Shown here in pieces: positions 18,554 through 53,645 of a stretch of 64,000 nucleotides of DNA. The stretch is taken from positions 62,744,001-62,808,000 of the forward strand of contig OZ336885.1 in assembly GCA_965287045.1 (NCBI GenBank), in the 5' to 3' direction. The DNA comes from Carcharhinus amblyrhynchos. Its lineage: Eukaryota. The notes under the pieces were generated by a model, which saw only the letters and a list, made by a program, of their open reading frames with translations, ran no database searches and was not told the DNA's origin. Each line of letters opens with the position of its first letter. Position 1 is the stretch's first letter. The translations under genes were made by a program, and so were the position numbers.

Positions 18554-18554
<1 letters not shown>

Positions 18555-20270: not shown

Positions 20271-20329
20271 ATATCTAGAGATGGTTAGAAATCTGGGTAG
20301 ATGTGAGGAAATCGACTAATTGATTTTTT

Positions 20330-21935: not shown

Positions 21936-21971
21936 AATTAGCCTCGTGTCAAGAAGCTTTAACGGAATCAG
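21936..21971 (+). CDS. Candidate 36-nt phase-1 micro-exon, type A (ELASCQEALTES)
   Basis: Perfect branch point TACTAAC at 21903-21909; ttcatgattcag|AATTAGCC…GAATCAG|gtaagc; paralogous to 47525-47560. Confidence 0.85.
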
Positions 21972-22029
21972 GTAAGCCGCGTAACAGACATCGATACGAA
22001 ACTCTGGGAGATTATATTGAAACAAGATA

Positions 22030-22690
22030 ACAATGAACAAAGAACAGGAACGTTCCACGTTTGTGCCGACCATGAATTATGTCTAAACTAAAACGGTATT
22101 TACTTACAATGTCCGCATCCTGCCATCACTATCCAATTCATATATTCCTCCAAGAGCGAAATGTTACTATTGTATCTGCTTACACCGCCTTCATGGGCAA
22201 GACGTTACAGCCAGTCACCAGACTCTTTGTAAAAAAAAAGTCACGCTCATCTCATTTAAACTTTTCCGCACGTAACACAAACGTCTGAACTCTTGCACAT
22301 GTTTTTTCTAAAGACACAAAGAATATCTGACGAACGTTTCTGTTCCTCTCAGTCATAACCTTGTAAAGGTCTATGCGTTCGAGACTTAAGTTGAGAAATG
22401 GCAAATTTTTTTTCGGGCACATATGAGGCAATGCTTTTTGGATGGTCCAATGCGTATAGGGAATACACGGAAAATGGTAGAACGCTTAGGAGTATTGGCT
22501 GCAGAGACTTGTCGGCGTATATCCCCTCCGAACCCACATATGATTGGACTGTGTAACAAAACCAGAGCACCAGGAGGAAACCCACACAAACACTGTGAGA
22601 ATTAGAAAAATCCAGACAGACAGTGGCACAAACCAGGAATCGGTCTCTGGAGCTTTGAGGTGATTGTGTTAACCACTATGCCACCGTGCC
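22030..22690 (-). mobile_element. Degraded CR1 3' fragment followed by an HE1-like SINE
   Basis: GAACAAAGAAC tail at ~22035; SINE core CCAGAGCACCAGGAGGAAACCCACACA…AACCACTATGCCACCGTGCC at ~22500-22690. Confidence 0.65.
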
Positions 22691-22827
22691 GGACAAGACC
22701 ATTTTATATCCACGGTTCCCGATACTTTCAACACTTATCCTTCATCTTCACCGGTACGTGACCGTACTGAATTACAATTAACTAACATTTGAATGACCCT
22801 TACATTTCGAATGTCGTTTGATCTTCA

Positions 22828-23381
22828 AGCTGGTGAGGCCGCAGCTGGAGTACTGTGTGCAGATTTGGTCGCCGCACTTACCTTGGAAGGAGTGCACAGG
22901 AGGTTTACTAGGCTGATTCCGGAGTTGAGGGGGTTGAACTATGAGGAGAGGCCGAATAAACTAGGCTTGTAATCGTTAGAGTTTAGAAGAATGAGGGGAG
23001 ATCTCATTGAGACGTATAAGTTGTTGAATGGGATGGATAGGATAGAGGTGGAGAGGCTCTTCCCGCTCAGAAAGGACAGTAGGACTAGAGGGCACAGCCT
23101 CAGGATAAAGGTTTAGAAAGGAGTTGAGGAGGAACTTCTTCACTCAAAGGGTGGTGAATCACTGGAATTCTCTGCCCGTAGAAGTGGTGGAGGCTGCCTC
23201 GCTCAATATTTTTAAGACGCGGGTTGATAAGTTTTTGATAGGCAAGGGATTAAGGGTTATGGGGAGAGGGCAGGAGTGTGGAACTGAGCCACGACAAATC
23301 AACCAAAATCTTATTGAATGGCGGGGCAGGCTCGAGGGGCTGGATGGCCTACTCCTGCTCCTATTTTTTATGTTCTTATGT
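22828..23381 (+). mobile_element. Young CR1 LINE 3' fragment
   Basis: 'RRNFFTQRVVNHWNSLPVEVVEAASLNIFK'; 3' end GGCCTACTCCTGCTCCTATTTTTTATGTTCTTATG; same family as 54016-55206. Confidence 0.92.
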
Positions 23382-24280
23382 GCCGCAGGAACGCCTGTCT
23401 GCGCCCTGAACATGGATTCCAGTATGACTGTCGCTCTTCTCCGGCGTGTCCCCACTGCTGACGAAACAAGATCGAGGCCTGGTGCGACCTCCCTTGCTGG
23501 TGATGCCTCCCCATAACAAGTCATTCGTCCGACAGTATCCAAAACGTTATGCTGTTAGAAAGGGAAACATCGTATTGGATTTCCTTGACTGTCTGCCTGA
23601 TCTTTTGATGGACAACCAACACTTCTGCCTGCTTGCGTGTGAGTAAGGCTTGATAGCTCCAATATGTGATGCTTTCCGCCACCTGCATGGTCGTCCATCC
23701 ATCACACTGCACGTCCAATCGATCTGTACGTTCTGCGGGGATTTGCAATTGGGTTAACTTCATGCAGATGGAATTCCCCCAAATTCTTGAAGCCTCTCTG
23801 TTCTCCCACACGTCACAGACGATGCACGTTACCCAGCTGACTGATATTTACATCAACATTTTCTGTCTTTTAAAATCCTCAAAGTTTAGGTTTGAGTCTC
23901 TGATAAATAATAATAGCTAAACATCTGTGTGCCTGATACTATTTAATCAGTTCTATGTTTTAATTTGGTTATTGATCCGACTTGATCTGAAACCAAATTA
24001 AAATCAATAATTTAAATCAGCAGCTTAGAGTAGTTTATTTTCAAATTTAGCCCAAATTTCCTTCCATCCAATCAGCACACAGTTTCGTTGATGTCGCTTA
24101 AATGTTCTGTTTCAAATTAAGAAACAACCATACCTTAACATTACCTCATTGTCTCTCTATCCGGTCCAGGAATGAAGGCAGCGAATCCCGAAGGGAAATT
24201 ATAGTCTGACTCGCACATGTCTCTCTCCCTCTCGCTCTCTCAATCAGCTTTTTCTCTCGCGTCCACAACTACCGCATTAG
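23382..24280 (-). mobile_element. CR1 LINE 5' portion: ORF1 (Zn-finger/leucine zipper and start of esterase domain) plus probable 5' UTR
   Basis: 'MWENREASRIWGNSICMKLTQLQ…' and 'DTVG…RATVILESMFRAQT' correspond to the CR1 ORF1 motifs 'CxMWE…CxKCxQLQ' and 'LDTVG…VIGDSIVRGTD'. Confidence 0.75.
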
Positions 24281-24364
24281 GACAAGACGACATCTTGTTT
24301 CTACGACCTCACAGCGCCCTTTTGTTTTGGTTAAATGACAAGGGCTTTACTGTTTCTTGAGTAC

Positions 24365-24750
24365 AGAAGTTCCGCTTCCAACTCCCTCATTGGTAATGCT
24401 GAGTCAAATTCATCCTGACTTCTCCAGTGAAGTATCTCTGTCGTCTATATTATATGTTGTTCCTCTCTTTTACCTCTGTAGGGTTTCTTCCACTTTCCAT
24501 TTGTTACCAGATGTTGCTGCACCAACTTCACCCAGAATTCTCCAATGAAGTCCCTCTGCCATTTCTAACGAATGGTCTTGTTCACGCTTATCACTGGAGG
24601 GTTTCTTCCACTTCGCCCTTCTTAGTCGGTGTTACTGGTCCAAATCCGCAAAGAAAGCTCTCGTGAAGCCCTCTGCAATCTCTGTCGTTTGTGGTTCCTC
24701 CTATGAATCGTTGCAGCTGCTCTTCCACTTCACACTTTTAGTGGTGTTCG
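24365..24750. repeat. Degenerate tandem repeat, period 117-118 bp, ~3.3 copies
   Basis: TGAAG anchor at 24428/24546/24664; TCTTCCACT anchor at 24486/24604/24721. Confidence 0.8.
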
Positions 24751-25045
24751 CCCATCGTCGTCGATGAGGACCTCGACGCCATTAGTCATTTTGAGGCTGG
24801 ATGCGGTATGTCCGAAGCTGACTTATCAGGCCAATTTGAGCACGGAATGTCCTGGCACATATTGGGCAGACGTGTGTATGCACTGTAGTTGTTGTGCTCG
24901 TGGCTTTAGACTTGTGCAGCTCGTGCTTTAGGTGTGCTTCAGCAATGCACTTTGCTTCATAAGCTTGACAGCCCTTGTGGATCTAGTAGAGCCAGGTACG
25001 GTGGTTTTGTGCCAGCGTTTCACAGGTGCTGGCTGAGTGCATCAG
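24745..25045 (-). mobile_element. RTE-clade LINE 3' end
   Basis: Minus strand encodes 'ETLAQNHRTW…IHKGCQAYEAKCIAEA…HVCPICARTFRAQIGLISQLRT', the typical RTE C-terminus. Confidence 0.85.
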
Positions 25046-25265
25046 CATGAGCATGAGCAAAAGATTTGGTGAGAATAAACTCGAGTTATTTAGTTGCTCA
25101 CCTACAAGAGCACATTCACTTTGTGCTGATGGAACAATTTTCATCATACAGAATTGAATTGTTGGAAAAATGTACACTTCAAAAACTAATTTATAACATG
25201 GAAAACCTTTTTATTTTCCTATTCTACCTACATTCGTTTATGCACTTTCAACGGCTTTACCAGAC

Positions 25266-26418
25266 TTAACATAGAACGTAGTATACTACAGCACAAATAC
25301 TCCCTTCGGCCCACAAGTTGTGCTGATCATATCCATACATACCAGGCCTATCTATAACTCTCAATACCATTAAATGCCATGTACTCATCCAGAAGTCTGT
25401 GAAAAAGACCCCATGGAGTTCGCCTCTACCAACACCGACGGCAACCGATTCCACTCACTCATCGTCCTCTGAGTGAAAAAGTTACCCCTGACATCTCCTC
25501 TACACCTGCTTCCCAGCACCTTAAACATGTGTACTCTTGTAGCGACCATTTCAGCCCTGGGAAATAGCCTCATTGAATCCACCCTATCTATACCTCTCAA
25601 CATTTTATATCAGATCGCCTCTCAATCTTCGTCTCTCCAGGGAGAAGACACCTATCTCCCTCAACCTATCTTGATAAGACATGCCTCACAATCCAGGCAG
25701 CATCCTTGTAAATCTCCTCTGCACACTCTCAATAGCTTCCAAATCCTCCTTGTATTGGGGTGACCAGAACGGCGCACAGTACTCCAAGTTAGGTCTGACA
25801 ATGTCTTATAAAGTTGCAGCAATATCTCCCGAATCGTAAACTCAATCCCTCGATTACTGAAGGGTAGTACATCATACACCTTCCTGACCACATCCTCCAC
25901 CTGCGAGGCTGATTTAAGCGTCCTATGACCCGTACCCCAAGGTCCTTCTGCTCCTTAACAGTGCTGAGAGTCCTACTATTGATATTGTATTCCTCCATCC
26001 CATTGGACCTGCCAAAATGGACGGCTACACATTTATCCGTGTTGAAGTCCATCTGCCACTTCTCCGCCCAGTCGTGCATTTTATCTACCTCTCGTCGCAA
26101 CTTCTCACATCCCTCGAAACTATCCACAACACTACTAACCTTCGTGTCGTCGGCGAACTTACTAACCCATCCCTCCATTTTCTCTTCCAGGTCATTTATG
26201 AAAATGACAAACAGCATGGGCCCTGGAAAAAATCCCTGGGGCACTCCACTGGTGACCGACCTCCATGCAGAAAAAAGACCCATTCACAACCACTCTCTGC
26301 CTTCTGCAGGCTAGCCAGTTCTGGATCCACAAGGCAACAGCCCCTTGGATCCATGCCCTCTCAGCTTTTCAAGAAGTCTTGCCTGGGGGACCTTATCAAA
26401 TGCCTTGCTGAAGTCCAT
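25266..26418 (-). mobile_element. CR1/HER1-like LINE 3' fragment with RT motifs
   Basis: 'VTSGVPQG…LFVIFINDL…SKFADDTK' in ORF 25789-26283; same family as 9755-10460. Confidence 0.93.
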
Positions 26419-28789
26419 TGCTCTGATAGGAAAATGTAACGCTATTCAAAAAAAAAATCCATTGTGAATATTTATTTAAGGGACATACTATAAAAATGCA
26501 TCTGAAGCGTTTCAAAAACAATGGGAATGCTGACAGTATGTGCCACTATTCGCTTAGTAAGTATTAATGATGCTGAAACATCAACCAATATAACCAATTA
26601 ATAATTTCCATTTTTCCCTTTCTTGTTATTCAGATCTGACTAAATGTCATTATTTTCAAAATGCAGTTTTGATGGGCTATAAGGCAATATTTAACCCGAT
26701 TAACTCAAAACCAGCAACATGCATTTGAAATAACTTAAACAAATCTGTTGTATTCGGCAAGAGCCATCCATTAGCAACATTGGACAGACACAGAAGCGAG
26801 GGTGTCCGAAAATAAATGACGAGTATATTGCAGGTGTATGGATTATCTGTGAATGTAGCACAATGAGCAACTGTTTTGAGGAACTCAAGTCATTGATCTA
26901 CAATTTCACAACATTCCTTCAGAACGTGTTTGTTAGTTTCAGTACGATACAGCTGCACACAATTGTGCCCTCCTTTGAGGGTTTTTGAATATGTGGTTAA
27001 AGGCACGATATGTCAATCACAATCTGCTCCACAGCAGCAAAACTTCTGTTTCTGTTGAGTTGCTCGTCAGTTCTTCGCCAAACTCGATGTCTTCCCAAGT
27101 ACTATCCATAGGCCTCATAAACTGAAAAAAAAAACACAATAGATTGAATTGTGTGAAGTAATCTGCGCCTCCACTATAATGCATGTAATTGTATTGCTCA
27201 TATTGCGTTATTTTTGTCAAGTTGTATTTCCCTAATTTGATGTGTTTGATTCTACATTAATAGATGGAACCACATTCCAAGGCTATGGTTGATTTACATT
27301 CTTGTTAAGAAGCAACTTTAGGATGGTTGCCACCTCTTCAGACGATACATGTTACATAATCCTTCACAAATAGTTTCGAAAGAATATTATTGTCAACTTT
27401 TATTTTGTTTCACCCTCGCTATATCAGCAGACTAATATTCAACCTGCATGCTCTCTTGATGTTTTCATCGCGACACATCGGATCAACTCCCATATTTAAT
27501 CATATATCAGTACAATAACTGTGAATTCCAGTGTTACTTTCCATGCTGCACAATACTGTTTTATTATTGCAATTTTTATAGTATTGCAAATGTTCTTTTT
27601 TTCGAGTGCATGCACTTGTTCCATTTCCATTTTCGCGTCATGTCAACAAAACGAGAATGTTCTGACCAGTGCATTTGCAAACAGCAACAGCAAACAGCAA
27701 TCAACAATGATTCAGCAATTCATTACCTCCCATCATAGGTATCTTGCATTTAGTGCTGAATATTACAAATGCTATCTGTTCCAGAGCCAGTTTTCCGAGA
27801 TCGGAATGCAGATTTTTTTTTGAACGAAATGCTCCATAACAGAATGAAACAGTCATTTCCCATCAGTGCCACAGTTCCCACCCCACCAACAACTCTCGCC
27901 CCAAACGCACACCGTACCCCCTCACCTTCCCCATCCCCATTCTGTGGTGCACAATTTCCTCAATTTGTACGTGACTGCTCAGGAGTCTTGCCTATACCTT
28001 GTTCTTGACATTTTGAAGGCATTTAATTCCGCGGGCGTGCATTAACTCTACATTAACATTTGCTCGAATAAAAGATGCCACACGCGTCAGCTGGCTGCGG
28101 TCTCCTACTTCAGCTTTGCCAGTGTCTGACATTGTGCCACACTTCATCACAACAAACAGATGTATATCCACTTGATAAAAATGATTTTATATCCGACTTT
28201 GCTAATTCCATTTGAATTTTCATAGATATGGAACAATCATTTTGCGATTTAATTTCGGGACGTTTTCCACGACGGTAATTCGAAACCAAAGCTGCGCTGG
28301 ACGCAGAAATTACAAGCTCGTAACAACATTTGATGTATGTACTGCTGTGTCGGACGGACGCTGGGCACTGAAGGCGTGTGTTCTCAGACACACTCTGCTG
28401 TTTCTCCTCTGTATAGTACTGGTCGTTGGAGTGCAATTATGCCAACTATGTAACATCAGCGGGTTCCTGCAGTACATCTTGCAAATACTACGCATTAGTT
28501 TCAATGTGGGCCAGCGTTAGATGATTGGAATGTTTCTCGGACTGGCAGAATCAAGCAGATTAATTTGTCTGGGATGTTTTGAAAATTATGCCTTTCAATT
28601 GTGGAAAGAAAATTTCGGAATCAGCAGTTCTGTTCATATCCGCAAAACTCCGAGCCTGTTCCCTGATCTGACAGCAATAACATTTGCATCGCTAGTTCAG
28701 ATCAGTTTTGTGTCAATTGTACGAATCATGGCATAGATACTGGAGTACTGAGTTATGGTAATCGGTTTGAGTTTCGATGGGAAATACTT

Positions 28790-29385
28790 AGAGTCTTTCA
28801 GCCACAGAAGTTTACAGCATCAAAATAGGCCTTTCGGCCCAGCTTTTAAACTCTTCAGTTAGTCTCAATTGATCACGTTTAGCCCATTTCCATCTGTACT
28901 CCTCTTATCCAAAACTATATGTGTTTTAAAAGACAAAATAGTTCTCGAATCTACTGCTAAATCTCACAGCTTAATCCAGACATTTACCATTCTCTGAATG
29001 AAAAACAAAACCCCGTCTGGATCTTTTGTATCTCCCCCTTTCACCTGAAACTTATGCCCTCTAGTTTTAGACTCCCATAACTTTGGGAAGAGATATTGGC
29101 TTTCTAGCTGATCTATGTCCCTCTTTAATTTATACACCTCTATAAGATCAACCGTCAGCCTCCTACCCTCCAGAGGAAAAAAAAAGTTCCAGTCAATGCA
29201 GCACCTCTGTACAGCTCCAACAATCATGTCCCGGTTGCATCCTACCGGCAGTCTCGTCTGCACTCTTTCTAGCTTCGCAATGTCATTTCCATAATCGAGT
29301 GACGAGAACTGTACACCTTGTTCCAAGTGTGGTCTCACCACTATTTTTTACAAGCTCAACAGACGCCCCAACTGCTGTATCCAAC
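28790..29385 (-). mobile_element. CR1 LINE 3' fragment
   Basis: 'VRPHLEQGVQF…LERVQTR…DLIEVYK…FFIQRMVNVW'. Confidence 0.85.
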
Positions 29386-29977
29386 AATTTGACACATAGA
29401 TGGAATTTTGTTTAAGATATCAATTGTTTGATATTTCTGCGGCACTTCTTCGCTTACCACTTCCCAGGCTATGCTGGGTCTAGCTGCATTCGGAAATTGA
29501 ATGCTTCATTTTTACTTGAATTGTCATATGTCTCCATGCTTCATTGCAAACTCAGACTCTCAGACAGCTATGAGATGTCAGCAAAATATTATTCTGTGTT
29601 CCCCACCACAGTGGCTCTGAAAAAAAATGTTAAAAATAATCTTGTATTGGACTGATATCTTCCTCTTTGTACATTTCATGACATGAGCAAATTACATCTT
29701 ACCACTGAACATGGTCATGAATGTCAATAATTTTGTCTGATGATACAGAAAACATTCCCAATTGTCTCCAAAAGCCCGACCTCTTTTTTGTTATCTGAAT
29801 TTTCCACTGCAGCGTGAATGTTTTTGAATAAACTATCAATATATTTACATTGTATACTTTGACAAGAAAATGGTAAAAAAAAATCAATTAATTTGAAATA
29901 ACACATATAGCATATGTTAAATCCATTGGGGATTAATACGGTATTGCACAAAATGTGTTTTTTTCTGTCGCTAACAG

Positions 29978-30004
29978 AGAAGAAATTCAAAGAACTAAAA
30001 GAAG
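29978..30004 (+). CDS. Candidate 27-nt phase-1 micro-exon, type B (EKKFKELKE)
   Basis: ttttttctgtcgctaacag|AGAAGAAATTCAAAGAACTAAAAGAAG|gtgagt; consensus donor. Confidence 0.85.
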
Positions 30005-30319
30005 GTGAGTCGAGCAATTGATTATCCTGTTCCTATGATTGAATTGTTCTCATATTGTACCAGTAAAAACATTTTCCAATCGGATCGTATAGTAAGCGAT
30101 TTGATTTTCAGAAATGTTTGAACTGAGTAAATCCTGCGAATGCAAGCGATTATTCATGCAAGATAGCTTTGCATAAATGAGATTTTGCATAATTTGGTCA
30201 GACTGAGGTTTGACAGGAACAGTGGTCCTTATGGTTTTCAGAAGAACGTCTTGCATTTGCTATGAAGATACATGATGCATCAGTTTTAATTTTCCGATTC
30301 CACTCGATTAATGAGCGAT

Positions 30320-31425
30320 TCCATAGATTGGAATATAATAGAAACAAGTGAGACTTTTATTCCGAAAGAGGGGGAGACAAGGTCAAGAAAAAAATAGATA
30401 TATATTTGAAAGTTAGCCCAACGCCTATCCGAGGGAAATTGCAGGAATTCATTATTACCATATGATTCGTGGGCTATTGACAAAATCCAAAGCCACGAGT
30501 AAGGGCTATTTTTAAAGGAAAACGCATTAGCCAATCTGTTGAAATTATTTGAAGGCCGCTTGTGCTTTGGGTGCAGCAGAATCAAGGAGGTGTACTCTAA
30601 TTGAATTTCCAGAACTTATTCAAAAATGTGCCACATCTAACATTATTGTAGAAAATAAAACAATAATTTAGAGCTTTTTTTAATATAAAGGCATGCCTTG
30701 AAGAAAAAAAACTAGTTCGCAGGCAGCAGAAAATAGTGATATATATGCATTTGTCCGGTGGATAGGTTGTGCTGAATTGTTTGTCAACGGGATCAGTGCT
30801 GGTATCTCTAAATTGATCGATGACTTTAACAAAGGGGCTAAAGGAACCTCCGTTATATTGATCAATGGTAGAAAGATAACTAAGATATAAATTGTAAAGC
30901 GAATGAGAAGAAATGCAAAAGGCAAACTCCTCACTATTCTGTGAACAACGAACTGGCGAATGGAATGTAATGTTAGGAAATATCAAATTTTCGTTCAGGA
31001 ATAATACTGAAAAAGCTCATTATATTGAGATTGCGAGATAACAGACTTCTGCATTGCTCACAGGTCAAAGTGCTCTGATATGTGTCCGTTATAATGCCAA
31101 TAGTTTAATGGGAATACTGCCGGATTGCTCTTGTTTATTGCGCAGAAAATTGATTACTTCATTACTGGAAGTTATGACTCAGTTTTGCAAGGTCATGATG
31201 AGCGGCGACGTAGCATTGTATGGAGCTTAGAACTCAGATTAAAGTAAAAATGAAAATGCGTAAGTGGCAGTAAGATATACTCAACTCATTCCAAGAATGG
31301 GTGGCTTTACTTATGAGGAAAATCTGCAGAGATCACGTTTGCATTTGATACAGTTTAAACGTGTAAGCAGGGACTTCATCGAAAACAATCCTGCATTGAA
31401 ATGTTTTGCCGGTGTAGATATGAGA
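30320..31425 (+). mobile_element. Old, heavily degraded CR1 RT fragment
   Basis: Residual motifs, e.g. ATTCCAAGAATGGGTGGCTTTACTTATGAGGAA ('IPRMGGFTYEE'). Confidence 0.6.
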
Positions 31426-31429
31426 CAAT

Positions 31430-32160
31430 GGGCCCGATTTCACCAAAAAATCGCGCCCGCTTTTGGGCGTGGAATGACAGAGAATTAGCGCGTTACCCTT
31501 ATAACGCGATCCACACCCGAAGCCGAGCAGATCGCGCCTTCACCGACACCCAATTTGGGCGTGCATTCCGTCCGCACCCCAATCGGGCGACCATAAGATT
31601 TAAGTAGATTACCATGCATTTAAATCGATTTAATGAACCGTGCGCCCAAATCGACTGCCAGACCCTACTTAACTGTCAAAGAACAAAGAACAAAAACAGC
31701 CCGGGAAACAAGCCCTTCGGCCCAACGAGCCCGCGCCTTTTTAACATTACCTGTCTCCCCTCCACCCATGACTCTTATCTATGCTTCTGGCATTCCACAT
31801 TGAGGTAAACTAATTTAGGGACAATTTATTACCTCCAATCAGCAGATCTTTGGGGTGTGAGAGGAAACCGGAGCACCCGGAGAAAACCCACGCAAGCACG
31901 GGGGTAATGCGCAAACTCCCACAGACACTGGCCCAAATCCATGTGTCTGTACAGCAAACAGTGATAGTCACTGAGCTGCCGTGTTGCCCAGTCCGTCTTC
32001 GTTCCGGATCCGCGCAACCCGCAGAATAAAAAATCCGAACCGGTTTCCTATTCTGCAGAGGAATCTCCGAAGCCCATCCTCCTCGAGCACCCTTCGCAGT
32101 CCCCCCGCTAATCACTCCGTCAGACCCCCACCCTCACGCCCGCGACCGGACCACCGGACA
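31430..32160. mobile_element. CpG-rich Harbinger-like non-autonomous element, interrupted by a SINE
   Basis: Starts GGGCCCGATTT, like shark Harbinger termini; abrupt CpG-rich composition. Classification is inference. Confidence 0.45.
31676..31989 (-). mobile_element. HE1/V-SINE-like SINE
   Basis: (CAAAGAA)n tail, GGAAACCGGAGCACCCGGAGAAAACCCACGCA core, tRNA-like head. Confidence 0.85.
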
Positions 32161-32326
32161 TACACAACTTTGATAAACAGTAATTTTCGTTCCTCTATTG
32201 CTGATCAAGGACCGTGAAAACGTATGGTATTACTAATGTAAGTGAAGCTTAGTCCGTGATTTTGACTCTTCAGATGCAACTTGCCCCTTCAAATGATCAA
32301 AGTTACTACATAAGTCTTCTTCACAG

Positions 32327-32353
32327 CGGCAGAGAAAGAAGCTAAAGAAAAAG
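32327..32353 (+). CDS. Candidate 27-nt phase-1 micro-exon, type C (AAEKEAKEK)
   Basis: tcttcttcacag|CGGCAGAGAAAGAAGCTAAAGAAAAAG|gtactt; paralogous to 51374-51400. Confidence 0.8.
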
Positions 32354-32799
32354 GTACTTGCTGAAAATTTGCTTCAATGCTGGTGGAAAGGGAAACACAA
32401 TTCTCATTTGCAACAGGGGACATTAAAGCTTTGGTGAATGCCATGCCACATTTTGAGCTTGTAACATGTCCCCAGTGAGTATTTTGTCATGTAACGTCAA
32501 CGCTTTTCAGCCCGACCATGTGAAGTTGTTCCTGGTTTTATCGATTACAAAGTAAACTTACGGCCGATGACGACACAGTTTTGGCATCTTTATAAGAGCA
32601 TCAGCCTTTCTTACCATTGGCACGTAGACAGGATGTTCACAGCCATCTTCAGTTTAAGCTGCTGTTTTAACCACCCACCTCTCCTGTGATCACAAATGCA
32701 ATAGATGTCAGTGGCTGAGTTATTGTCGAGATATCAAACAGCAGCTGAATATATTGGCTGACGGCTTATTACAATTGTGGAAAGTTGTTGAACGTGCAT

Positions 32800-38060: not shown

Positions 38061-38064
38061 GAAT

Positions 38065-43500: not shown

Positions 43501-45700
43501 TGATGTGCAATTAACATTTTACTGTGTTCTTAACATAAATGAGGATCGAAACCTGATAATGCTTACCTTCATCCGTTCCCTCTAGTGAACCACATCTTTC
43601 CAACTTTTTGTTGTCTATTGCTTTCTCTCGGTAACACATAGGAAAAGGAGATAGTAGGAAGTGGTGTCCACCTGAGATGTATCTCCCATTGCTTAAGATG
43701 GTCTTGGCTGACGTCCCCTGGGTGCCAGGACCTGGAAGGCCTTGGCTGACTTGTGGTTGGCACTGTTTGTGTGCCACATTGCTCATCACATCGGCCCTGG
43801 CACACCCCGAGGTGAGAAAAGGGGAATTGGGAGATCTCTGGACTTCTGGGATTTCCCGGCTGAAAGACGCTGGCATGGCCTCAAGCACATCCTCTTATTT
43901 TGGGGTGCCCAAAGGCCCCAGTGGAACATCATGGGACACCAGCGTAAGTGGACGGAGCTCCAGATACTCTGGCGTTACCTGTCTCTACCAGTCTTGTTGG
44001 CCAAGAGCTGTTTGCCCCATGTTCTGTGATCCCGCAGCTCGATCCCTCGTGGGTCATTCTCTGCAACACTCAGCTACAGCATTTTGTGAGAAAGTCAGGC
44101 TCTGCAGCCGATCAGCAGTGGTCCAATGGGCCTGGGCTTTGTTTTCCAAGTTCACAGCCATGGCCAGCTGGGTGTCTCCAGGTTGCCAGCGAGAGTCCCA
44201 GCCATGGCCAGCTGGGTCTAAATATAACCTCGACACCCATGGTCATGGAACGCTTTCTGTCCCCTGAATGCCACGAACACACTCGCCCGTGGCTCGTAGT
44301 GTCAACAGGATGGCCGGGACTCTGCCACACCTGAAAACAGACGGCTGAGCCTGAATTTCCTTCGTGGTCGGCTCCCTTGTAAAGATGGCCTAAATCTCAC
44401 GCTGTTTTGGCACCACATGCTGCAAAAACAATATCTTTGACTCCCCTAAAATGCCCTGCAGTCACAGCGTGTTTGCTGACAGCGCTTCCACAACTATCCG
44501 GGTGTCATTCATGCATGTGTGCCAGCTTTGGGAGAAACAATCCCCGAAGCCCAGAAGCTGGCTTGGGGAAGCCATATCCTGGTCTCCAGCAGATCACTGT
44601 GTGCCCGCGCCTTCGGATGGGCCCGCCTCCATCCGATCACCGTCAGCGGCAGTGATTTGTTCACCCGAGCATGACCCAGACGCCTCAACACGAAAGGTAC
44701 CCACAATGTCTCTATGTTAGTGTGTTTCAAGCTAGATGCAGATGACACTTCAGTGGTACTGCCCTCAAAGGTTTTATCAGTGCTTCCCTCCGAGATGTCA
44801 TCTGGAGGGTCGTAGGCAGTCAGCACCCGAATTGTGAGGGCGGCAGCACATCCTGAGTAGTCGGGCTTCTCTGGGTCCAGAGCTAGAAAAATAGAACATG
44901 CATTTGGGAGAAAGAGAAACAGGCAGACATTGTCTGCAGCACCGCACGAATTTAGAGTATAGCGACGATTGAGGGTGAGTTTCTGCTCACTTGCATGCTG
45001 TATGCTGACCTGACTGTCATTGACCATTCGGTATGCCCCCCCCCCCCCCCCCCCATCCCATGCCAGCTTCATGGCACAATCATCCATGCTACTCAGTTTC
45101 CACATACTATGCACACCCCTCCCAGTCTAGGTCGTCTCCCGTGCTTTGCAGATTTTTTTTTTCTGTGGGAATATAAAGTGGATAGTAAACATTAACATGT
45201 TGCATCGTGCACAATGCGTGCCTGTGTCATGATTGTTGTGCTGACATTTTCGGGGAAAACGGTCACCACTGAATGACACTCATTGAGGGACGAGGGAAGT
45301 GGTTAAATTATGTTCACATGTTGCATGCCATCTGTCTGTCCAAGTAGGGTTGGAGATCCGTGCCAAGCATGTGTGCAATTGCAAGTTTAATGCTCACTCA
45401 GCCTTGCTGCTCGCAGATGACCGTGTGGTTTATTTTTTGCGCACTTCCTGCCAGAGCGCCGTGTCAGTCTCCTGGCATTCGCCACATCGGCCATCCTCCC
45501 ACAATGCCATGACAGTTGCACCCCTTGATTTAGGACGCTGGCCAGTGAGCAGATGATCATATTTGTCCTCTGCGCCATCTAGCAGATGCTACTGGCCTGC
45601 TTGCAAAACTTTGGAAGATGCTTTCTGTGTGTCGATCTTTTTTGGCGTGACTGGGTGTGAATTCCTTCCTGCAACTTATGTAGAATTCCGGCTTATTAGG
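40570..45700. mobile_element. Degraded autonomous PIF/Harbinger transposon (transposase on +, Myb/SANT on -)
   Basis: 41878-42297: 'RRLRRSKTILHQIC…HPFPVAVNLTATVNFYAYRSF…GDVAGISQSS'; 45387-45578 (-): 'MADVANARRLTRRSGRKC…LRAAR'. Frameshifted; ends approximate. Confidence 0.85.
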
Positions 45701-46079
45701 TGAGTGCAGGGTCAGTGAGTGTGGCCAGTTGACAACAAACAGAGTTTGAAGTTTCCATTCAGTTCAGTGTCATTCATCCCTCAGTATTTTGATTGACTGC
45801 CAATTAGTCGGCTGCCGTGTACGGGACATGGTGGTGGCGGGGGGAGGGGTGCGGGATGCATTTAATAATCGATTCACTGTTGTGTTCGGGAAGTGCAATC
45901 CAAAAACTCCCATTCAAGAGAGGGAATGATTACAACCTGGTGTTCAGCATATCACCACTGTCTTAGTTCTCTGCAGGGCAGCAGTGAGGACAATATGTTA
46001 AAGGAATGGAGAGGTAGCGTACCGCATTATCCGCATCCATGGGGGGCATGATGTGAGCGGGCAGCCATGTCTCTTTGTG

Positions 46080-46480
46080 GGGAACACGGTGTTGGGGGGG
46101 GGGGGGGGGGGCAAGGGCGGCAGGGCAATGAGTCCAGCGGTATCACTCTGCGGGGTTGTCGAGATTTTGGGTGCCATCAATAATGCCAGCGGTGAGATGT
46201 GTGTGTTGCGGGGCGGGGAGAAGTGAGGGCGCGGTGGATGTGGGGGCCAGCGATGAATTCGAGTGTTTGAGGACAGTGATCGACGATTTGTGTTCATATG
46301 CCGGTTCCCACTCATCCCAACGACGCTCTTGCCGCGAATGAGCCCCAGCTCCCTCCAAAATTTAATGATATACACGACAGGGCTCTCTGCAGTGCACATA
46401 GTACAGAGATTCGGGTGAAAAGCTGAACTGAAAAATCATTCGAGATTTGGAACAAATCTCCCATCAATTCAAAACGTCTG
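46080..46480. mobile_element. Terminal fragment of the same non-autonomous family as 36030-36194
   Basis: GATTCGGGTGAAAAGCTGAACTGAAAAATCATTCGAGATTTGGAA vs GATTCGGTTGAGAAGCTGAACTGACAAAACAGTCAGGATTTGGAA. Confidence 0.65.
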
Positions 46481-46640
46481 TGAGGCCGGCGGCCATTACG
46501 TAACATTGTCGTTGCGCTCGGCTCAACACGTTAGATTAGTATGCACTTAGTTCCCTTTTTGCATTCAGAGTATTGTTCGGACTCCGTTACATATCGGGTT
46601 CAATTCATAAATGTTGTATTAATGTGTATGCCCCAAACAG

Positions 46641-46667
46641 ATGACAAAATACGTGAGCTAAACGCAG
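46641..46667 (+). CDS. Candidate 27-nt phase-1 micro-exon, type D (DDKIRELNA)
   Basis: gccccaaacag|ATGACAAAATACGTGAGCTAAACGCAG|gtatgt; paralogous to 53619-53645. Confidence 0.8.
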
Positions 46668-46895
46668 GTATGTGAGTTAAAGCAGAACGTCAATTGTCAC
46701 GTTTTCAAAACATACGTTTTCATGTTATCTCTTCCATAGACTATTTAAAATCTATTTTACAAATGGTTGAATAATGAACCTAGTTTTAAGAACGCCATTG
46801 AATGTCGGTTGTGAAAAATTGATGAAGGTCGTAGTTAATATGCCGCCCTCATGCAACTAAGAACGATGGGGCAGCTACAACAGGAGCAGAATCAT

Positions 46896-46897
<2 letters not shown>

Positions 46898-46927
<30 letters not shown>
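46898..46927. repeat. (CA)n microsatellite
   Basis: Directly visible. Confidence 0.9.
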
Positions 46928-46930
<3 letters not shown>

Positions 46931-47524
46931 AATTGTCATAGAAGGAACCAACTTTGGTTTAGAATGCGCCTTTTGAGGTCGAAGAATGAACTCTACCTCA
47001 AATCGGAATAAATGCTGAAGTGAAAAAAAAGACAGAGGATCGCAGTACACCTCAGAAGGGAAGTTGTTGTTTGAAACAGACACAATAGAATTGAACAGAG
47101 TAGTGTTGGAACTGGGATTCACAATTGGAGCTTTAAACAGTGCACGAAAGTAAATAGCGTTCAGTTTGACTTATTGTATGAGACTAGGTCACAAACTGAT
47201 TGCCGTATTCAAGTAAGGGATGTGTAACACTTCAGGGGTTTCTCTCTGCTGTGGCAGGGAAACGTTGGCTCGATTGCTGGATTCGCCGATCGTATATATT
47301 TTCAAAATTGTGTTTTTCTGACCTTGGAAAAGAAACTGGATTTCATTCCAATTATTTAGAATGGTCGACTTTTAAACAAATGTTTTGTGCGCTAGTACTC
47401 AACAAGAAACACATAGATGGTAAAATTTCCGAATCTGCGAATGGACATTAATTCCCATACTGACAAGAAAACGACGGCAAGCAATAGCTTTAAAACAAAC
47501 ATAGATGTTTTGATTATGTTTCAG

Positions 47525-47560
47525 AATTGTCCAAGTGCCAAGAAAGTTTAAAGGATACAG
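47525..47560 (+). CDS. Candidate 36-nt phase-1 micro-exon, type A (ELSKCQESLKDT)
   Basis: tatgtttcag|AATTGTCC…GGATACAG|gtaaac; paralogous to 21936-21971. Confidence 0.85.
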
Positions 47561-49906
47561 GTAAACACTGAACTCCAGTGATCAATGGTTGTTCCATTGT
47601 TGTTTATTTTCTCATACGCGAAATCTCACTCTAAATTTAGTTCGTATTGCGTGTAGCTCGAGCATATTTAACGCATCAAAAATATGGCGTTAACTCATAA
47701 AACCCAAGTAATTTCGTATCATCAAGCAAAAATTACAAACAGTCAAGAAGGAACGGACATAACATATTTGTCCAATATATCTGCTTACAAAAGTGATTAA
47801 GTTCTTGTACAATAACAAAGTTCTCTCTAATTCGACCGTTGTACCCTCTGAACAGGGAAGCTGATATGCCACAATCAGTGGTACACGTGTTTGAATTTGA
47901 CATTCCTGAGAAATGTGTCTGATCTTAAGGAGTACATGATGTCGGAAAATCAGTGAAAAATGCATTAATGCCAAGGCTAACCGGATTTTTCTGAATGGCA
48001 TGATTTGTTCAACAAACATTAACGTGTCTTCATCATTAATGCATTGAGAATGCTGATGATTGTTATTAATGTATGATCCCAAAATTTGTTCAGTTTAGTG
48101 AATCCATTTTTTTCGCCAAGGGAGGAGATTAAGTGTGTCACTTCGGAAATTCAGTGATGTGTTTCATGCCGATATGACATTCCAAAAGTATTTGCAAAAC
48201 ATCACGGATAACACTTAATTCCAACTCCATGACGTTCAGCCTTGCCGTGGCTTATTCACTGCTGAAAAAAAAATAATTGATGCCCAATAACGAGCACATT
48301 TTCACCGTGGCTGGCATCCACTTTCTTAGTTAAGTTGCGATGAATTAAATTTTGATTTATGTACATGCAAGACCAATTATTCTACAGATATATACGATCG
48401 CCCTCCAGCCGTCCCCTCATATGCACGAGGATACAGACACATACTACAGTACCTCCTGACACGCCCACCAATAAACACCGTTTTCTCTGACGCATGGATC
48501 AACAATAATTCGTGGCCAAGTAACATCTTGGTTTACAAAATGGCATATTCCTGTTCCAACTACTTCAGAGTGGTGTAGCTCTTTTCTCTGAATTATATTC
48601 CAGAGACGTTTCTCCAGCCCATAGTTATGCATCTTTTCATGGTTGAGTGACAGTGATTTCACTTGCCATTGTCTCAGTTCTGATTTTCCCTTTTTCAGCT
48701 TTTTCCAGAGATCTCTGTTTTTTGATGATAAGCAATTATTAACACGGGTGAACTGGTTGCAAATGTTATCTGTGATGGAAGAATAAAATATATGGATTTG
48801 TTTTCACATTTTTAGTGTGATCACTGCACTCCTGATACATGTAAAAAATGCCTCGAGGATAGATTTGATACATTATGAAATCATTTAGCCGTTGCTATGA
48901 TTCGGATAGCATCACCTTATCTATAAAACACTCCATTAACAAGATTTTGGAGTTTTGGAATATGTGCGATTGGTAAAATTGAAAACTGCAAATGCAAATT
49001 TGGAAAGTAACTGATTCTCATTTTTCTGCATATAACTCAGGTGATGGAAAAGTATAAGCGAATGTGAAGGATACATTTTCACCTAGGACCTCCCTAACTT
49101 TTTCCAGGATGTACTATCTTCCGCTATGAGGAAGAATATACATTTTTTTTTCACAGAGAAAACGGCAACTGCGTTTTGTCCATTACAGCAAAATTTTGAT
49201 AACTCCCTATCATTCTGAGGAAAACATGACAAAAAAAAAACTTTTCCACAATAGGGCTCATTCACCGGTTGTGCATGAACCGGTGTTCACGATCTTAACC
49301 ATGCTGTTCAACTGTAATAAATAATGCAAAACAAGCTATCTTTCAAAAAAGAACTAACATTTGTACCGCAGTTTCAGTTCTGATTTATCTGCTTGGCGTA
49401 GATCAATATTTAGCGGTTCATTTCGCCGTTCAGGAAATAAAAGCCGCTCCTTGAAATTCCAGCAGTTTTTTTTATCAGATTACGGATTTCATGCTCTCTC
49501 CGAATCAGCATTCTTGTTCGTTAAATTGTGACTCCATCATCGGTTTGCACCTGTCGCGCCAGTATTCCAGTCCTTGCCATGTTAAATTCGCTAAGCCAGT
49601 TTACATTGTTTTCGAATCGTCCATCACTTCGCGGGGGTTGAATTTAGGAGCTTACTGATATCCTGCTCTGAGTGTTCTTGTTTTTTTTGTCTTTCTGCCT
49701 GATTATGGGATGCATCTCAGAAATGTACCTTGTTAAAAGAGACATTGTGTCTTCCCGTATTTACTTTAGTATCTGCAAATCGAACACTAATATTGCATAT
49801 GGTGTTCTATGTGTAAAATAATACAAATGCATAACCTTGTCAAAAATGATGCCACTCGGACAATTAACATTCTCCCAAAAATGATACACATGTTTCTCGT
49901 TTGCAG

Positions 49907-49933
49907 AACAAAAATTGAAAGGTAAAGAGAAAG
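49907..49933 (+). CDS. Candidate type B micro-exon: 27 nt (EQKLKGKEK) or 15 nt (EQKLK, ending 49921)
   Basis: tttctcgtttgcag|AACAAAAATTGAAAG|GTAAAGAGAAAG|gttatt; two in-frame donors. Confidence 0.8.
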
Positions 49934-50571
49934 GTTATTTTATGACAATGAATGTGTGTTGACTTATTGAAAAAGTACCTGGTACGGGGAACAAAAACTT
50001 TGATGTCCATGAATGCATGTTATGCAGCAATACATATTCGGTACTATTTGCCGACGATTAAGTTACAAATTAGGACATAATGTCCTGCTAATCAACTTAT
50101 CAGCACATCTGAAAGGGTTCCGTACACTTGCGCCAATGCCCAAGTGAACCACTGATATAATTTGATGACCATACAGTTCCATATAGCTCCTAATTATAGT
50201 GAAGCTGCATGTGCAATCACCCACAATATAAATTCATATTTGAATTTGCATTTTAATTTACTTGCTTTGTTAACATTTAGATCAATTTAAACCATCAATC
50301 CGTAAGCTAATATTCTTGACGGTCATGCCATTAGAAGTAGTGAATTGGGGCTAGGATGCTTTTCAGATTACTACGAGACAGCGTTTCAGAGCATTTGTGA
50401 AAAAAAAAGACGCATCTGTGATCCCCAACATTAACCTGCTCCCCCTATCTGGTTGAAAGACAAGATAGCATCATCATTATCAGATTGACTCCAAAGAATA
50501 GAAACAAGAAGTGATGTTATACAAATAATAAAACAAAAAAATTTTCGCCGTTTTCTTTCTGCACACCGTTT

Positions 50572-50640
50572 TGTGTGTGTGTGTTTGTGTGTATGTATGT
50601 GTGTGTGTGTGTGTGTATTTGTATCTATGTGTGTGCGTGT
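50572..50640. repeat. Imperfect (TG)n microsatellite
   Basis: Directly visible. Confidence 0.85.
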
Positions 50641-51373
50641 TTCTCTGTATGCATACATAGGGACTGAAGGAACGGTAAATGCGTTATGTACGGCAATGAC
50701 TTTAATATTGCTCCAACACGTTAGGGACAATTATCCCAACTAAACTGTAACAATTCACAGTCTCGATGAATCAATGTTGTTGCATTTCCATCATTATATT
50801 TGAGTTCCCACAGGGAGAGAAAAAAAAACAACACTGCTTTTCCATCAAAATATGGCTTCTGCGGCAAAGTTGTCGACTTCGTTTCCACACTGATACAGCA
50901 ATTTTTATTTTAAGTGTTTTTTTGAACAAACAGTGGGAATGTTTGCTTTGATTGTTCATCCGATATCCAGTTAACTGCACTTCACACACAAAGGCAGTTG
51001 TGTGTCCTGCATGTGTCAGAAAGAACAGTTCTGTATCATTTATTTCCAGTCATTGCTAATCTGCCTCCTCACTTTCAACACATCTTTTCTATCTTCATTG
51101 TGGTTTTACCTTGCTATGAAACTGTCAGTTGCTGTTTCGTCAAATGTCACGTGTTTCATGCGCAACCGACTTGTGCAACTGCAAAGTTCTTTCAAATGTG
51201 TTCTTTCAGAACGCACATTGCCAAAACAAGCCATCGTCACATTCCGGATTGGACAAACGTTATGATTGCAGTAGTCATTATCAACACAAAGTAAATCTGG
51301 ATTTGTTTGATTAACCACATGGAACATGTGCCAGCACATCTTTATAATTGTTCTTTGTTATTGCATTTCACAG

Positions 51374-51400
51374 CGGCAATATCCGAAGCGAGAGAGAAAG
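51374..51400 (+). CDS. Candidate 27-nt phase-1 micro-exon, type C (AAISEAREK)
   Basis: ttgcatttcacag|CGGCAATATCCGAAGCGAGAGAGAAAG|gttcgt; paralogous to 32327-32353. Confidence 0.8.
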
Positions 51401-53618
51401 GTTCGTACAGATACGGTGTCAGAGCTGGCAGGGTCAAAAACGCCCCTTAACTGCCACTCACAAATGGCAGCTTTTGCAACATTTAGCGATTCGACTTCAA
51501 GCTTTCAACTATTAAGTGACTCTAAATGCACTTTCGTAGAAAATACCAAAACAGATCCATGCCGCTATATCAATCAGCTTGTGACGGGTGGCCTGGTGAT
51601 CAACAACAAACTAGAGTCGTTGCCCTGTAAATATGAACATTCTATTAAGAGTTGGATACAGAAAACCAGGATACGATCCGTCGAATGTTTGCAGTGGTGT
51701 TCGGGCAAAAAATACTGAACAAGTTATCCACCTCCACATCTCCTGAAATCATGAGCATCAACAAGTGTGGTGTCCTCTTCAATTTGCGAGATAACTGATA
51801 ATTTTGCAGGCAGAATTAACAATAACGGCTAAATGATTTGGTTCCATTGAGTTATCGCGCTAAACGTGCGCTCTCCAACAAATGCCGTAAGCCGAGGTAG
51901 GTATGCGCAAAGTTGTTATGCTTGCCTTCCTATGAATATTAACTCAGAATAAAGGCAATCTCTATTTCCCTACTCCATTATTCTGCGCTCATTGAACAGA
52001 ACATGCCGATCACATGCACCTTTTCCCCTACTCGGAAGTTATAGGGCCACAACATTCACCTTCTCACAGAAACAATTTGGGTAAGAGCTTCATAAGTAAA
52101 CCACTAATGTCATTATTAATATGTTCCAAAGCTGTCTTGTGGCAAGAGGTGATTCAACTCGAACTGGCCCTTTATTCAATACACTTTTTGACCGAATGGC
52201 CGGCTGATAAATCTGATGTCAATTTCAGAAGGCTAATGTGTTTTTTTTTGTGATGATGGTGAGAATGATATCTTGCTGAGAGGGATGTGGTTGAGGGGTG
52301 GAGGGGGTGGATGGTGGATTTCCACCATGTGTCCACGCATCATACAGAGAGGAAGAGAGTTTTTGCTGTTCAAGTATTCCAATTCAATCACATAATCAGA
52401 CACATATCACGATAGTTTGTTTTCCTGAACGTCCTGGCCTAGACTAAAACAATTTAACATGTTCATTAAAGTTTTCAGTCACTGAAACCCTCACATTACA
52501 GCTTACAATTTGTTAAATCCATTCTTTGCTTTCATGGTTCCGAATATACCCAAACATACATGGCCCAATATTGCCAAATATAGACGACTGTTATTTGTAG
52601 ATGACGAATATATAAGTCATGTCCAACTCATAGACGTCTGATCCCAATCGGTGAGAAGCTCAACATTTGCTTTAGACATTCAGAACGCCTTAACGTGCGT
52701 GAATTAATGCCAGCAATACTCTGCATAATACGACTAAAGATAATATTAACTCCATTTGACATAAAAATAGCGTGTCTTCAGTAGAAGAACAAGGATCGGG
52801 AATTCTGACACATGCTTCTCACATGTTATTCCATTAATTCAGGCAAACCACACCGTAAAAAGCACACCATACCAACAGAGTTTGCTGTTCGAATGTTCCA
52901 GTTCAATCATTCATCGAGACATATGCTACTGTCAGGGAATATGTTAACTTGCCTGGATGAGTGTGCATTTAAATCTCTCAAGCAAAATGACATCACCGAG
53001 GATAATGCACGCTGCTTGAAATAGACAACTATAAACGACTCAAAGATCCATTCCCGAGGAACGTTAGTGAAGAGCGCAGTGGAATATGTGTAATATTAAC
53101 TGCAGAAATTCAACAAGTCGCCTTCCACAGCATATATCAGTCACAAAACATCTCCTTCCTGGAAGGAAAATAACAATAAAGAAAGACAATTTGCGCCAAA
53201 CTGTGATTGGCCTGAAGACAAGGTATTGAGGATGATAGGGCAAATGGCTGTGATTATTTTCAATCTGCGTCACAATTGATAAATTATATGTTGGAATTGT
53301 GAGTGAGTAAATTCAAATTGTTTCTGTTCGAGGAGAAAGAATAATTTCCTTCTTCATAAGGGAAACATTTTTCAATGTGTTCATGTAAATTTGCAGTAAA
53401 CAGCGAACACATTTTGCATTAATTTCAAATACGTATTTACACTGGCTTTCACGGAACTTGATATTTAGCATAGCTGACAAGTGTATTACGCTATTCTTTA
53501 TCAGGTACAATGTTTGTAATTTTCACTTTAGGGTACACATCTTGTTGTAGTTAAGGTGTAACTTTATGACATCAATTGTTCATAGGCTGTGTCTGCACCT
53601 TTTTTTTGCCTGGAACAG

Positions 53619-53645
53619 ACGACAGGATAAAAGAGCTAAAAGAAG
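53619..53645 (+). CDS. Candidate 27-nt phase-1 micro-exon, type D (DDRIKELKE)
   Basis: ttttttgcctggaacag|ACGACAGGATAAAAGAGCTAAAAGAAG|gtatgt; paralogous to 46641-46667. Confidence 0.85.

What the first reader, a model, noticed from the sequence alone, without database searches (positions are those of the whole stretch)
21936..53645. Four-exon module (A36-B27-C27-D27 = 39 aa) duplicated in tandem, with splice contexts preserved
Seen: the order A,B,C,D,A,B,C,D followed by an A-like start of the last exon. Paralogous exons share junction sequence (A: ttcag|AATT…CAG|gtaa; C: ttcacag|CGGCA…AAAG|gt; D: aacag|A(T/C)GACA…G|gtatgt) and residues (ELxxCQExL, AAxxEAxEK, DDxIxEL), while I see no similarity between the surrounding introns. 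Inference: an ancient intragenic duplication with purifying selection confined to the exons. This is the strongest internal evidence that the exons are real.
Basis: partly seen in the sequence, partly recalled or inferred. Interest (0 to 1): 0.75.

Follow-up and report, generated by a model that had tools for sequence, protein, structure and literature searches.

The report
Giant shark micro-exon coiled-coil gene
The eight tiny segments are very likely real exons, but only a slice of a predicted 870-kilobase cartilaginous-fish gene whose roughly 140 micro-exons would spell a 200-nanometre coiled-coil rod ending in one B30.2 protein-binding domain, a far longer version of the "heptad exon" tails of butyrophilin and chicken BG genes.

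Summary
All eight exons exist at the stated places, and the pairing is far beyond chance. They are 8 of about 140 phase-1 micro-exons (mostly 27 and 36 nt) running about 870 kb on the + strand to a single B30.2/SPRY exon 260 kb past the window. Exon order keeps a heptad register (0 of 300 shuffles match). A1|B1 spans the breakpoint of a 65-kb tandem duplication that copied the introns, B1 is a D-type exon, and a 2.8-kb deletion removed the module's true A and B; the intact A-B-C-D pair survives in sister units. Selection keeps splice sites and frame (53 of 55 versus 282 of 842 controls) but barely the residues (dN/dS 0.68). "A3" is not the last exon. No RING, B-box or IgV exon was found in 1.82 Mb. 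The B30.2 domain falls in a distinct clade whose named members are all cartilaginous fish, with six copies on this chromosome. No RNA data were available; the 5' end and single-transcript status are unproven. The scan noted this family before on two other genomes.

The parts
15809..15835 (+). 27-nt phase-1 micro-exon, B class (not in the finding)
   Evidence: homologues at 78451 and 144709 in sister units
21936..21971 (+). A1, 36-nt exon with Cys at heptad d; its true counterparts are 85749 and 151386, not the module's A
25028..25029 (.). Breakpoint of the youngest 65-kb tandem duplication (end of unit 1 joined to start of unit 2), between A1 and B1
   Evidence: 23598-25028 aligns to 88644-90093; 25028-25267 aligns to -39922..-39693; units 1 and 2 are the closest pair, 86.6%
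29978..30004 (+). 'B1', 27-nt exon that is D-class by sequence; counterparts at -35697, 96681, 160777
32155..32158 (.). Site of a 2.7-2.8-kb deletion that removed one 36-nt and one 27-nt exon (21 residues, 3 heptads) present in the three sister units
   Evidence: a contig of DNA run X1 (32060-32188, 1 difference) bridges the site
32327..32353 (+). C1, 27-nt exon (carries the heptad stutter)
46641..46667 (+). D1, 27-nt exon
47525..47560 (+). A2, 36-nt exon, Cys at heptad d
49907..49933 (+). B2, 27-nt exon; a second in-frame donor after base 15 scores comparably
51374..51400 (+). C2, 27-nt exon
53619..53645 (+). D2, 27-nt exon
57693..57728 (+). A3, 36-nt internal exon (not the last exon)
1..64000 (+). 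The whole window lies inside the predicted gene. Outside it (extended coordinate = C16 position minus 62,744,000): about 140 phase-1 micro-exons from -545,167 to +319,563; terminal B30.2/SPRY exon at +324,075 to +324,595 (L067:75-595); an uncorroborated candidate first coding exon with ATG and a signal-like stretch at -575,446 (L083:4555-4650)
   Evidence: array; B30.2: (PF00622, E 1.1e-15); candidate first exon: with no paralogous copy found

Best explanation
The finding is a slice of one predicted giant gene (about 870 kb, about 140 micro-exons) of a cartilaginous-fish B30.2 family that likely encodes a cytoplasmic, parallel coiled-coil rod of up to about 1,450 residues capped by one B30.2 domain, likely working as a long spacer that holds paired B30.2 binding heads. 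Shown from sequence: all exons are phase 1-1; the basic cassette is 36+27 nt = 21 residues = 3 heptads, and adding two more 27-nt exons gives the 39-residue module (5 heptads plus a 4-residue stutter). Exon order keeps the heptad register. The array grew by tandem duplication at several scales (exon cassettes, a ~17-kb triplication, a 65-kb unit copied about 3.3 times) and shrank by in-frame loss of whole cassettes. Inferred: splicing into one transcript, dimerisation, tuning of rod length by exon gain, loss and skipping, and ligand binding by B30.2 (established for TRIM and butyrophilin B30.2 domains). With no RING, B-box or IgV it would be an adaptor or scaffold, not an E3 ligase or a receptor.
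For: Strand asymmetry: 129 exon calls on + versus 5 on the opposite strand under one rule. Splice sites, length and open frame kept in 53 of 55 homologous pairs versus 282 of 842 intronic controls; the 2 exceptions are an alignment slip and an in-frame 6-nt deletion. Period 3.5, power 0.98 versus 0.35+/-0.06 for shuffled exon order, 0 of 300; no proline in 991 core residues. No stop created at any junction. One + strand B30.2 exon, entered in phase 1. The catshark RefSeq protein XP_038668997 (76% identical in B30.2) contains matches to 5 of the last micro-exons in the same order. RefSeq isoforms of family members differ by 6-9-residue blocks, as micro-exon skipping would give. The opposite-strand paralogue has the same build (86 calls versus 3 on its other strand) and the same Cys-free/Cys-rich/Cys-free zoning. 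Multi-isoform RefSeq relatives begin without a signal or membrane segment.
Against: No transcript links the window's exons to each other or to B30.2. The five catshark micro-exon matches are each weak (E 0.24-11) and lie at the 3' end only; the N-terminal part of that model matches LINE repeats. No relative over 460 aa was found in the clade. One upstream exon has an internal stop (-483166). Exon-by-exon order is not collinear between the two paralogues (Spearman -0.24 and 0.21, both not significant). dN/dS is not significantly below 1. Gaps of up to 26 kb between called exons could hide gene boundaries. Conserved core cysteines and a signal-like exon point away from a cytoplasmic location.
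Confidence: 0.5

Rival explanations
1. Same giant gene, but the product is secreted: the exon at -575,446 supplies a signal peptide, the repeated core cysteines form interchain disulfides, and the protein is an extracellular disulfide-linked rod with B30.2 heads, built like multimerin or angiopoietin but with a B30.2 head.
For: The exon has ATG, a basic N-region, a 15-residue hydrophobic core, strong acceptor and donor (10.3 and 8.6) and phase-1 exit, upstream of the first array exon. Cys sits at heptad d in 33 of 53 36-nt exons. Two RefSeq relatives start with a hydrophobic stretch (P0154, P0056).
Against: 19 signal-like candidates arise in 1.26 Mb on both strands under the same rule. No counterpart at the paralogue's 5' end or elsewhere in the genome. 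N-glycan sequons are not enriched (5 versus 4.0 shuffled, p 0.37). The hydrophobic RefSeq starts may be translated polypyrimidine tracts (inference). Chicken BG cytoplasmic tails also hold conserved cysteines (PMC5938342, passages).
Confidence: 0.22
2. The array is not one transcript: it is a row of several shorter coiled-coil genes or partial duplicates, only the last of which reaches B30.2; some units may be decaying.
For: One exon with a stop and some dead exon homologues; the sparse 5' zone looks modular; annotated relatives are short (175-460 aa).
Against: No second B30.2 or remnant on the + strand; register is kept across exon order; duplication breakpoints fall inside introns and leave an in-register join; splice sites intact in all four units.
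Confidence: 0.15
3. A membrane-bound butyrophilin/BG-type receptor with an extremely long cytoplasmic tail, whose IgV and transmembrane exons were missed.
For: Same exon logic as BG and BTN tails; the neighbouring paralogue has a run of 21-nt single-heptad exons like BG (PMC4046983 passages). The -575,446 exon could be a short membrane anchor.
Against: An IgV profile and motif scans find nothing in 1.82 Mb that includes the bounded 5' regions of two family genes (best E 0.43). The B30.2 clade contains no Ig-bearing protein.
Confidence: 0.1
4. Non-coding repeats or chance AG/GT pairs.
For: Exon interiors diverge about as fast as the units overall.
Against: and the catshark match.
Confidence: 0.03

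Closest known systems
Chicken BG genes (butyrophilin family), including the soluble 'zipper protein'
   Same: Long coiled coil written in many tiny split-codon exons whose number varies by duplication, deletion and splicing (13-36 exons of 21 or 24 nt, PMC4046983 passages; heptads span exon borders and tails hold cysteines, PMC5938342 passages). A paralogue here has a 21-nt exon run.
   Different: BG has signal, IgV and transmembrane exons and no B30.2; here no IgV was found, a B30.2 ends the gene, the cassette is 36+27 nt, and there are about 140 exons over about 870 kb.
Mammalian butyrophilins (BTN3A1, BTN2A1)
   Same: Heptad exons followed by a terminal B30.2 exon; B30.2 similarity E about 1e-18 to BTN3A1 structures.
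   Different: They have IgV, IgC, a transmembrane segment and only a few heptads (PMC4046983, PMC12841164 passages).
TRIM proteins with B30.2 (TRIM21, TRIM39, TRIM58), the names RefSeq gives to family members
   Same: Coiled coil plus C-terminal B30.2; TRIM21 is the best PDB match (E 6.6e-20).
   Different: No RING or B-box in the region or in 7 of 7 relatives scanned; separate long-branch clade; the rod is about ten times longer and micro-exon-encoded.
RefSeq cartilaginous-fish models XP_038668997 (orthologue), XP_055510696, XP_069775384-90, XP_042191566-8, XP_038672306-10, XP_078422387, XP_060706632
   Same: Same B30.2 clade, short coiled coil, isoforms differing by micro-exon-sized blocks.
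   Different: 175-460 aa only, named by automatic similarity; the orthologue's model covers just the last few exons and starts in LINE sequence.
Enterophilins (guinea pig; recalled, not found in the library)
   Same: Recalled as Ig-less, RING-less leucine-zipper plus B30.2 proteins.
   Different: Recalled as about 30 heptads, mammalian; relationship not tested.

Membership tests
B30.2/PRY-SPRY proteins | C-terminal B30.2/SPRY domain | tested here: met
   PF00622 58.3 bits over cut-off 26.3; TRIM21 and BTN3A1 matches. PRY did not score separately at E 0.001.
B30.2/PRY-SPRY proteins | B30.2 exon spliced to the window's exons | tested here: inconclusive
   Phase-compatible and joined to the last 5 micro-exons in the catshark model; no RNA for the window's exons
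TRIM | RING domain | tested here: not met
   Profile of 47 RING/B-box N-termini, best E 1.1 in 1.82 Mb; motif scans empty; none in relatives
TRIM | B-box | tested here: not met
TRIM | Coiled coil before the C-terminal domain | tested here: met
Butyrophilin / BG | Extracellular IgV (and IgC) | tested here: not met
   Profile of 16 IgV segments, best E 0.43; its only positive control was the protein set it was built from
Butyrophilin / BG | Signal peptide and transmembrane exon | tested here: inconclusive
   One candidate hydrophobic exon, uncorroborated
Butyrophilin / BG | Heptads encoded by small split-codon exons | tested here: met
Butyrophilin / BG | B30.2 nested among butyrophilins in a tree | tested here: not met
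   Own clade of 15, support 1.0, no Ig- or RING-bearing member, among 157 domains; its sister group was not resolved
Butyrophilin / BG | Linkage to the MHC | not tested
   No search made
Tetherin / PLVAP | Locus beside PLVAP, with membrane anchors at the ends | tested here: not met
   PF06637 hits C26, not C16; the gene ends in B30.2
C-type lectins with neck repeats (CD23, CD209) | C-type lectin domain | tested here: not met
   Motif scan gave no credible hit; the terminal domain is B30.2

The most novel reading that the evidence does not exclude
Cartilaginous fishes have an undescribed family of at least six giant genes clustered over 6 Mb that encode secreted, disulfide-stapled coiled-coil rods of 100-200 nm carrying B30.2 heads, with length set by more than 100 register-preserving micro-exons: an extracellular use of B30.2 as a multivalent sensor or matrix cross-linker, invisible to standard annotation.
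Probability: 0.2. Interest if true: 0.85.

Novelty: new variant of a known kind. Interest (0 to 1): 0.58.

Why it matters
If spliced as predicted, this would be among the most exon-rich vertebrate genes (general knowledge, not checked here), and a whole multi-megabase family that current shark annotations reduce to short 'TRIM39-like' stubs. It gives a third architecture for B30.2 proteins beside TRIM and butyrophilin in the oldest jawed-vertebrate lineage, bearing on where BG/BTN heptad tails came from. It is also a natural test bed for how more than 100 micro-exons of 27-36 nt in multi-kilobase introns are spliced, and for how a coiled coil changes length by duplication and deletion while selection guards splice sites and register more than residues.

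Tried and rejected
No RNA holder listed for window 55000-64000; run X1 behaves as genomic DNA about 97% alike, so expression is untested. Tetherin/PLVAP locus rejected. C-type lectin, IgV, RING, B-box, SRCR, fibrinogen and TNF motifs not found. Signal-peptide exon: no paralogue by peptide scan, blastn, tblastx or genome search. Exon-by-exon collinearity between paralogues not significant. Protein searches found only the catshark orthologue and short relatives. ESM Atlas gave only generic SPRY clusters, plus one lead at score 0.84 (1579 aa, coiled coil + SPRY, 137 members) that could not be retrieved. Single-sequence AlphaFold of B30.2 was low confidence (pLDDT 49.8) and was not used. A maximum-likelihood tree was killed by the sandbox; FastTree was used, leaving out 10 near-duplicate isoforms. 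Dropped exon calls: 122142 and 378592 before the count of 140; 177303 (stop, homologues lack a donor) is inside the 140 and inside the 97-exon core but judged dead; -3662 scored under the threshold and its window homologue has lost its AG. Eight literature searches listed no paper describing this family; the library lacks most subscription papers. Catshark expression: supplements of PMC13188829 had no match; those of PMC11979771 could not be read and may bear on expression.
Full report
OBSERVATION. All eight segments are present with the quoted junctions: A1 21936-21971, B1 29978-30004, C1 32327-32353, D1 46641-46667, A2 47525-47560, B2 49907-49933, C2 51374-51400, D2 53619-53645. All are AG/GT-bounded, phase 1-1 and open. 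An ordered set of four is far beyond chance. Between the two modules only exons A and D and interspersed repeats align.

CONTEXT. The window is G000:C16:62,744,001-62,808,000; coordinates below extend the window's. I read 1.82 Mb around it. Profiles seeded with the window's exons found 49 27-nt and 35 36-nt exons scoring over 20 on the + strand and none on the minus strand in the first 864 kb (trained on +, so biased). Under one general splice-plus-composition rule, also trained on + strand exons, the gene span gives 129 calls on + and 5 on the opposite strand. My merged list has 140 calls (75 of 27 nt, 53 of 36 nt; 4338 nt, 1445 residues) from -545,167 to +300,767; two further exons (297883, 319537) come from the catshark match and one more (287041) scored below the cut. 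Two of the 140 hold a stop (-483166; 177303, judged dead); no junction makes a stop. The array ends in a phase-1 terminal exon at +324,075-324,595 encoding B30.2/SPRY (PF00622, E 1.1e-15), the only one on the + strand in the contiguous DNA read.

HISTORY OF THE WINDOW'S MODULES. A 65-kb segment is tandemly repeated about 3.3 times with its introns. Unit identities are 83.1-84.7%, except units 1 and 2 at 86.6%. The window holds the unit 1/unit 2 junction at about 25,028, between A1 and B1, and a 2.7-2.8-kb deletion at about 32,156, between B1 and C1, that removed one 36-nt and one 27-nt exon present in all three sister units. A contig of DNA run X1 bridges the deletion site with 1 difference in 129 bases, so it is unlikely to be an assembly slip, although X1's relation to the assembled sample is unknown. 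B1 with flanks matches D2 at 37/54 and B2 at 30/54. The older A-B-C-D duplication is therefore real and intact in units 1 and 3 (for example 103708-104130-104491-115581 and 116520-118889-119803-122034), but in the window the first module is a composite. It still reads as 39 residues in register, because B- and D-type exons put core residues at the same positions (position profiles; register read by hand).

SELECTION. Mapping each exon to its homologous place in sister units, 53 of 55 pairs keep AG, GT, length and an open frame, against 282 of 842 intronic controls; the two exceptions are an alignment slip and an in-frame 6-nt deletion. The pairs come from four units and are not independent. 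Exon interiors are 84.3% identical, against 83.7-85.5% for all aligned columns. dN/dS is 0.68 (bootstrap over 16 exon groups 0.46-1.04); pN is 0.117 at core a/d positions and 0.171 elsewhere, with overlapping intervals. Selection guards splicing, frame and register far more than residue identity.

PROTEIN. The conceptual protein is 18% Glu, 18% Lys and 14% Leu. In the 97-exon core (991 residues, no Pro, 42 Cys) the hydrophobic period is 3.5; power is 0.98 against at most 0.35 in 200 residue shuffles and 0.35+/-0.06 in 300 exon-order shuffles, none reaching it. 36-nt and 27-nt exons alternate in 74 of 96 adjacencies, so the basic cassette is 21 residues, three heptads; 33 of 53 36-nt exons have Cys at a d position. 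At 0.15 nm per residue (established) the rod would be about 200 nm if all exons are included.

FAMILY. The best relative is catshark XP_038668997, 76% identical in B30.2; five of its preceding short segments match micro-exons here in the same order, each weakly (E 0.24-11), while its N-terminal part is LINE-derived. Six related B30.2 exons lie on C16 within 6 Mb and one on C9. The tail-to-tail paralogue spans about 490 kb with 86 calls versus 3 on its other strand, no stop, heptad order reached by 2 of 200 shuffles, and the same Cys zoning, but exon-by-exon collinearity with this gene is not significant. The head-to-head paralogue has a run of 21-nt single-heptad exons. In a FastTree tree of 157 B30.2 domains drawn from the query's own hits, these form one clade of 15 (support 1.0, stem 0.95); all 7 named members are cartilaginous fish, one is an unnamed Logan protein. 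RefSeq isoforms in the clade differ by 6-9-residue blocks. None exceeds 460 aa. Profiles for IgV and RING/B-box find nothing in 1.82 Mb (best E 0.43 and 1.1), nor does Pfam in 7 of 7 relatives. PLVAP is on another contig.

THE 5' END is unresolved. An exon at -575,446 has an ATG and a signal-like stretch with strong splice sites, but 19 such candidates arise by the same rule in 1.26 Mb, and no paralogous copy was found; sequons are not enriched.

MECHANISM. Shown: exon anatomy, register, duplication history, terminal B30.2, family clade. Inferred: one spliced transcript, a parallel dimeric rod, B30.2 ligand binding, length tuning by splicing. I put 0.5 on a cytoplasmic rod-plus-B30.2 adaptor or scaffold, 0.22 on a secreted disulfide-linked form, 0.15 on several shorter genes, 0.1 on a BG/BTN-like membrane protein and 0.03 on non-coding. 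Confidence that the exons are real coding exons of this family is about 0.95.

COMPARISON. It works like the chicken BG tail: many small split-codon exons, variable in number, forming a coiled coil, with a soluble 'zipper protein' form that regulates actin-myosin interaction (PMC4046983: passages and the first part of section 8; PMC5938342: passages). It ends like a butyrophilin or TRIM (PMC12841164 passages, on BTN architecture and presence in cartilaginous fish). It fails membership of TRIM (no RING, no B-box) and of BTN/BG (no IgV). Enterophilins are a recalled analogue only (none of the 15 papers listed holds the word). Eight searches (listings and abstract starts seen) showed no description of this family. 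Two earlier unchecked notes of this scan report the same kind of gene in other genomes (seen after my reading was fixed); they agree but are not independent evidence.

VERDICT. Observation partly confirmed, interpretation partly supported. New variant of a known kind; interest 0.58. The scale and the absence from annotation are surprising, but the exon logic is known from BG/BTN, expression and function are untested, and the scan has met the family before.

Noticed in passing
window 49907-49933: B2 has a second in-frame donor after base 15, also present in both sister copies (-15542, 118889); it could be spliced as 15 or 27 nt.
   Followed up: partly
C16 63.149-63.637 Mb (window +404,851 to +892,722), minus strand: Tail-to-tail paralogue: 86 called micro-exons and its own B30.2 (L075:851-1366); includes 15-nt exons.
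   Followed up: partly
window -644,000 to -688,000 (L169-L173), minus strand: Head-to-head paralogue with a run of about 11 exons of 21 nt, one heptad each, like chicken BG tails.
   Followed up: partly
C16 60.45, 61.08, 63.07, 63.15, 63.74, 66.44 Mb; C9 106.38 Mb: Seven B30.2 exons of the same clade; separately, many B30.2 exons cluster on C9 96-112 Mb and on small contigs C41, C46, C53, C73.
   Followed up: partly
window -456,361, -438,673, -421,327: Three near-identical 36-nt exons about 17.5 kb apart: a second tandem duplication, probably young.
   Followed up: no
window -483,166: A 36-nt array exon with an in-frame TAA; a skipped or poison exon, or an assembly error.
   Followed up: no
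window +66,390: A-class exon shortened to 30 nt by an in-frame 6-nt deletion, splice sites intact.
   Followed up: yes
window about 44,881 and about 63,030: Dead exon-like remnants whose homologues in sister units also lack a good donor or carry a stop.
   Followed up: partly
window +181,425 to +188,946: A degenerate tandem satellite of about 7.5 kb ends the fourth, partial 65-kb unit.
   Followed up: no
window 9,800-10,570, 25,270-26,300, 38,060-39,340, 54,020-55,210: CR1/L2-like LINE fragments (open frames; family name recalled); they account for most intron repeats.
   Followed up: no
whole 1.82 Mb read: CpG observed/expected is 0.61-0.66 throughout, high for a vertebrate, with no clear CpG-island promoter.
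   Followed up: no
P0001 residues about 60-118: The catshark RefSeq model's N-terminal part matches LINE repeats, so the annotation is chimeric.
   Followed up: yes
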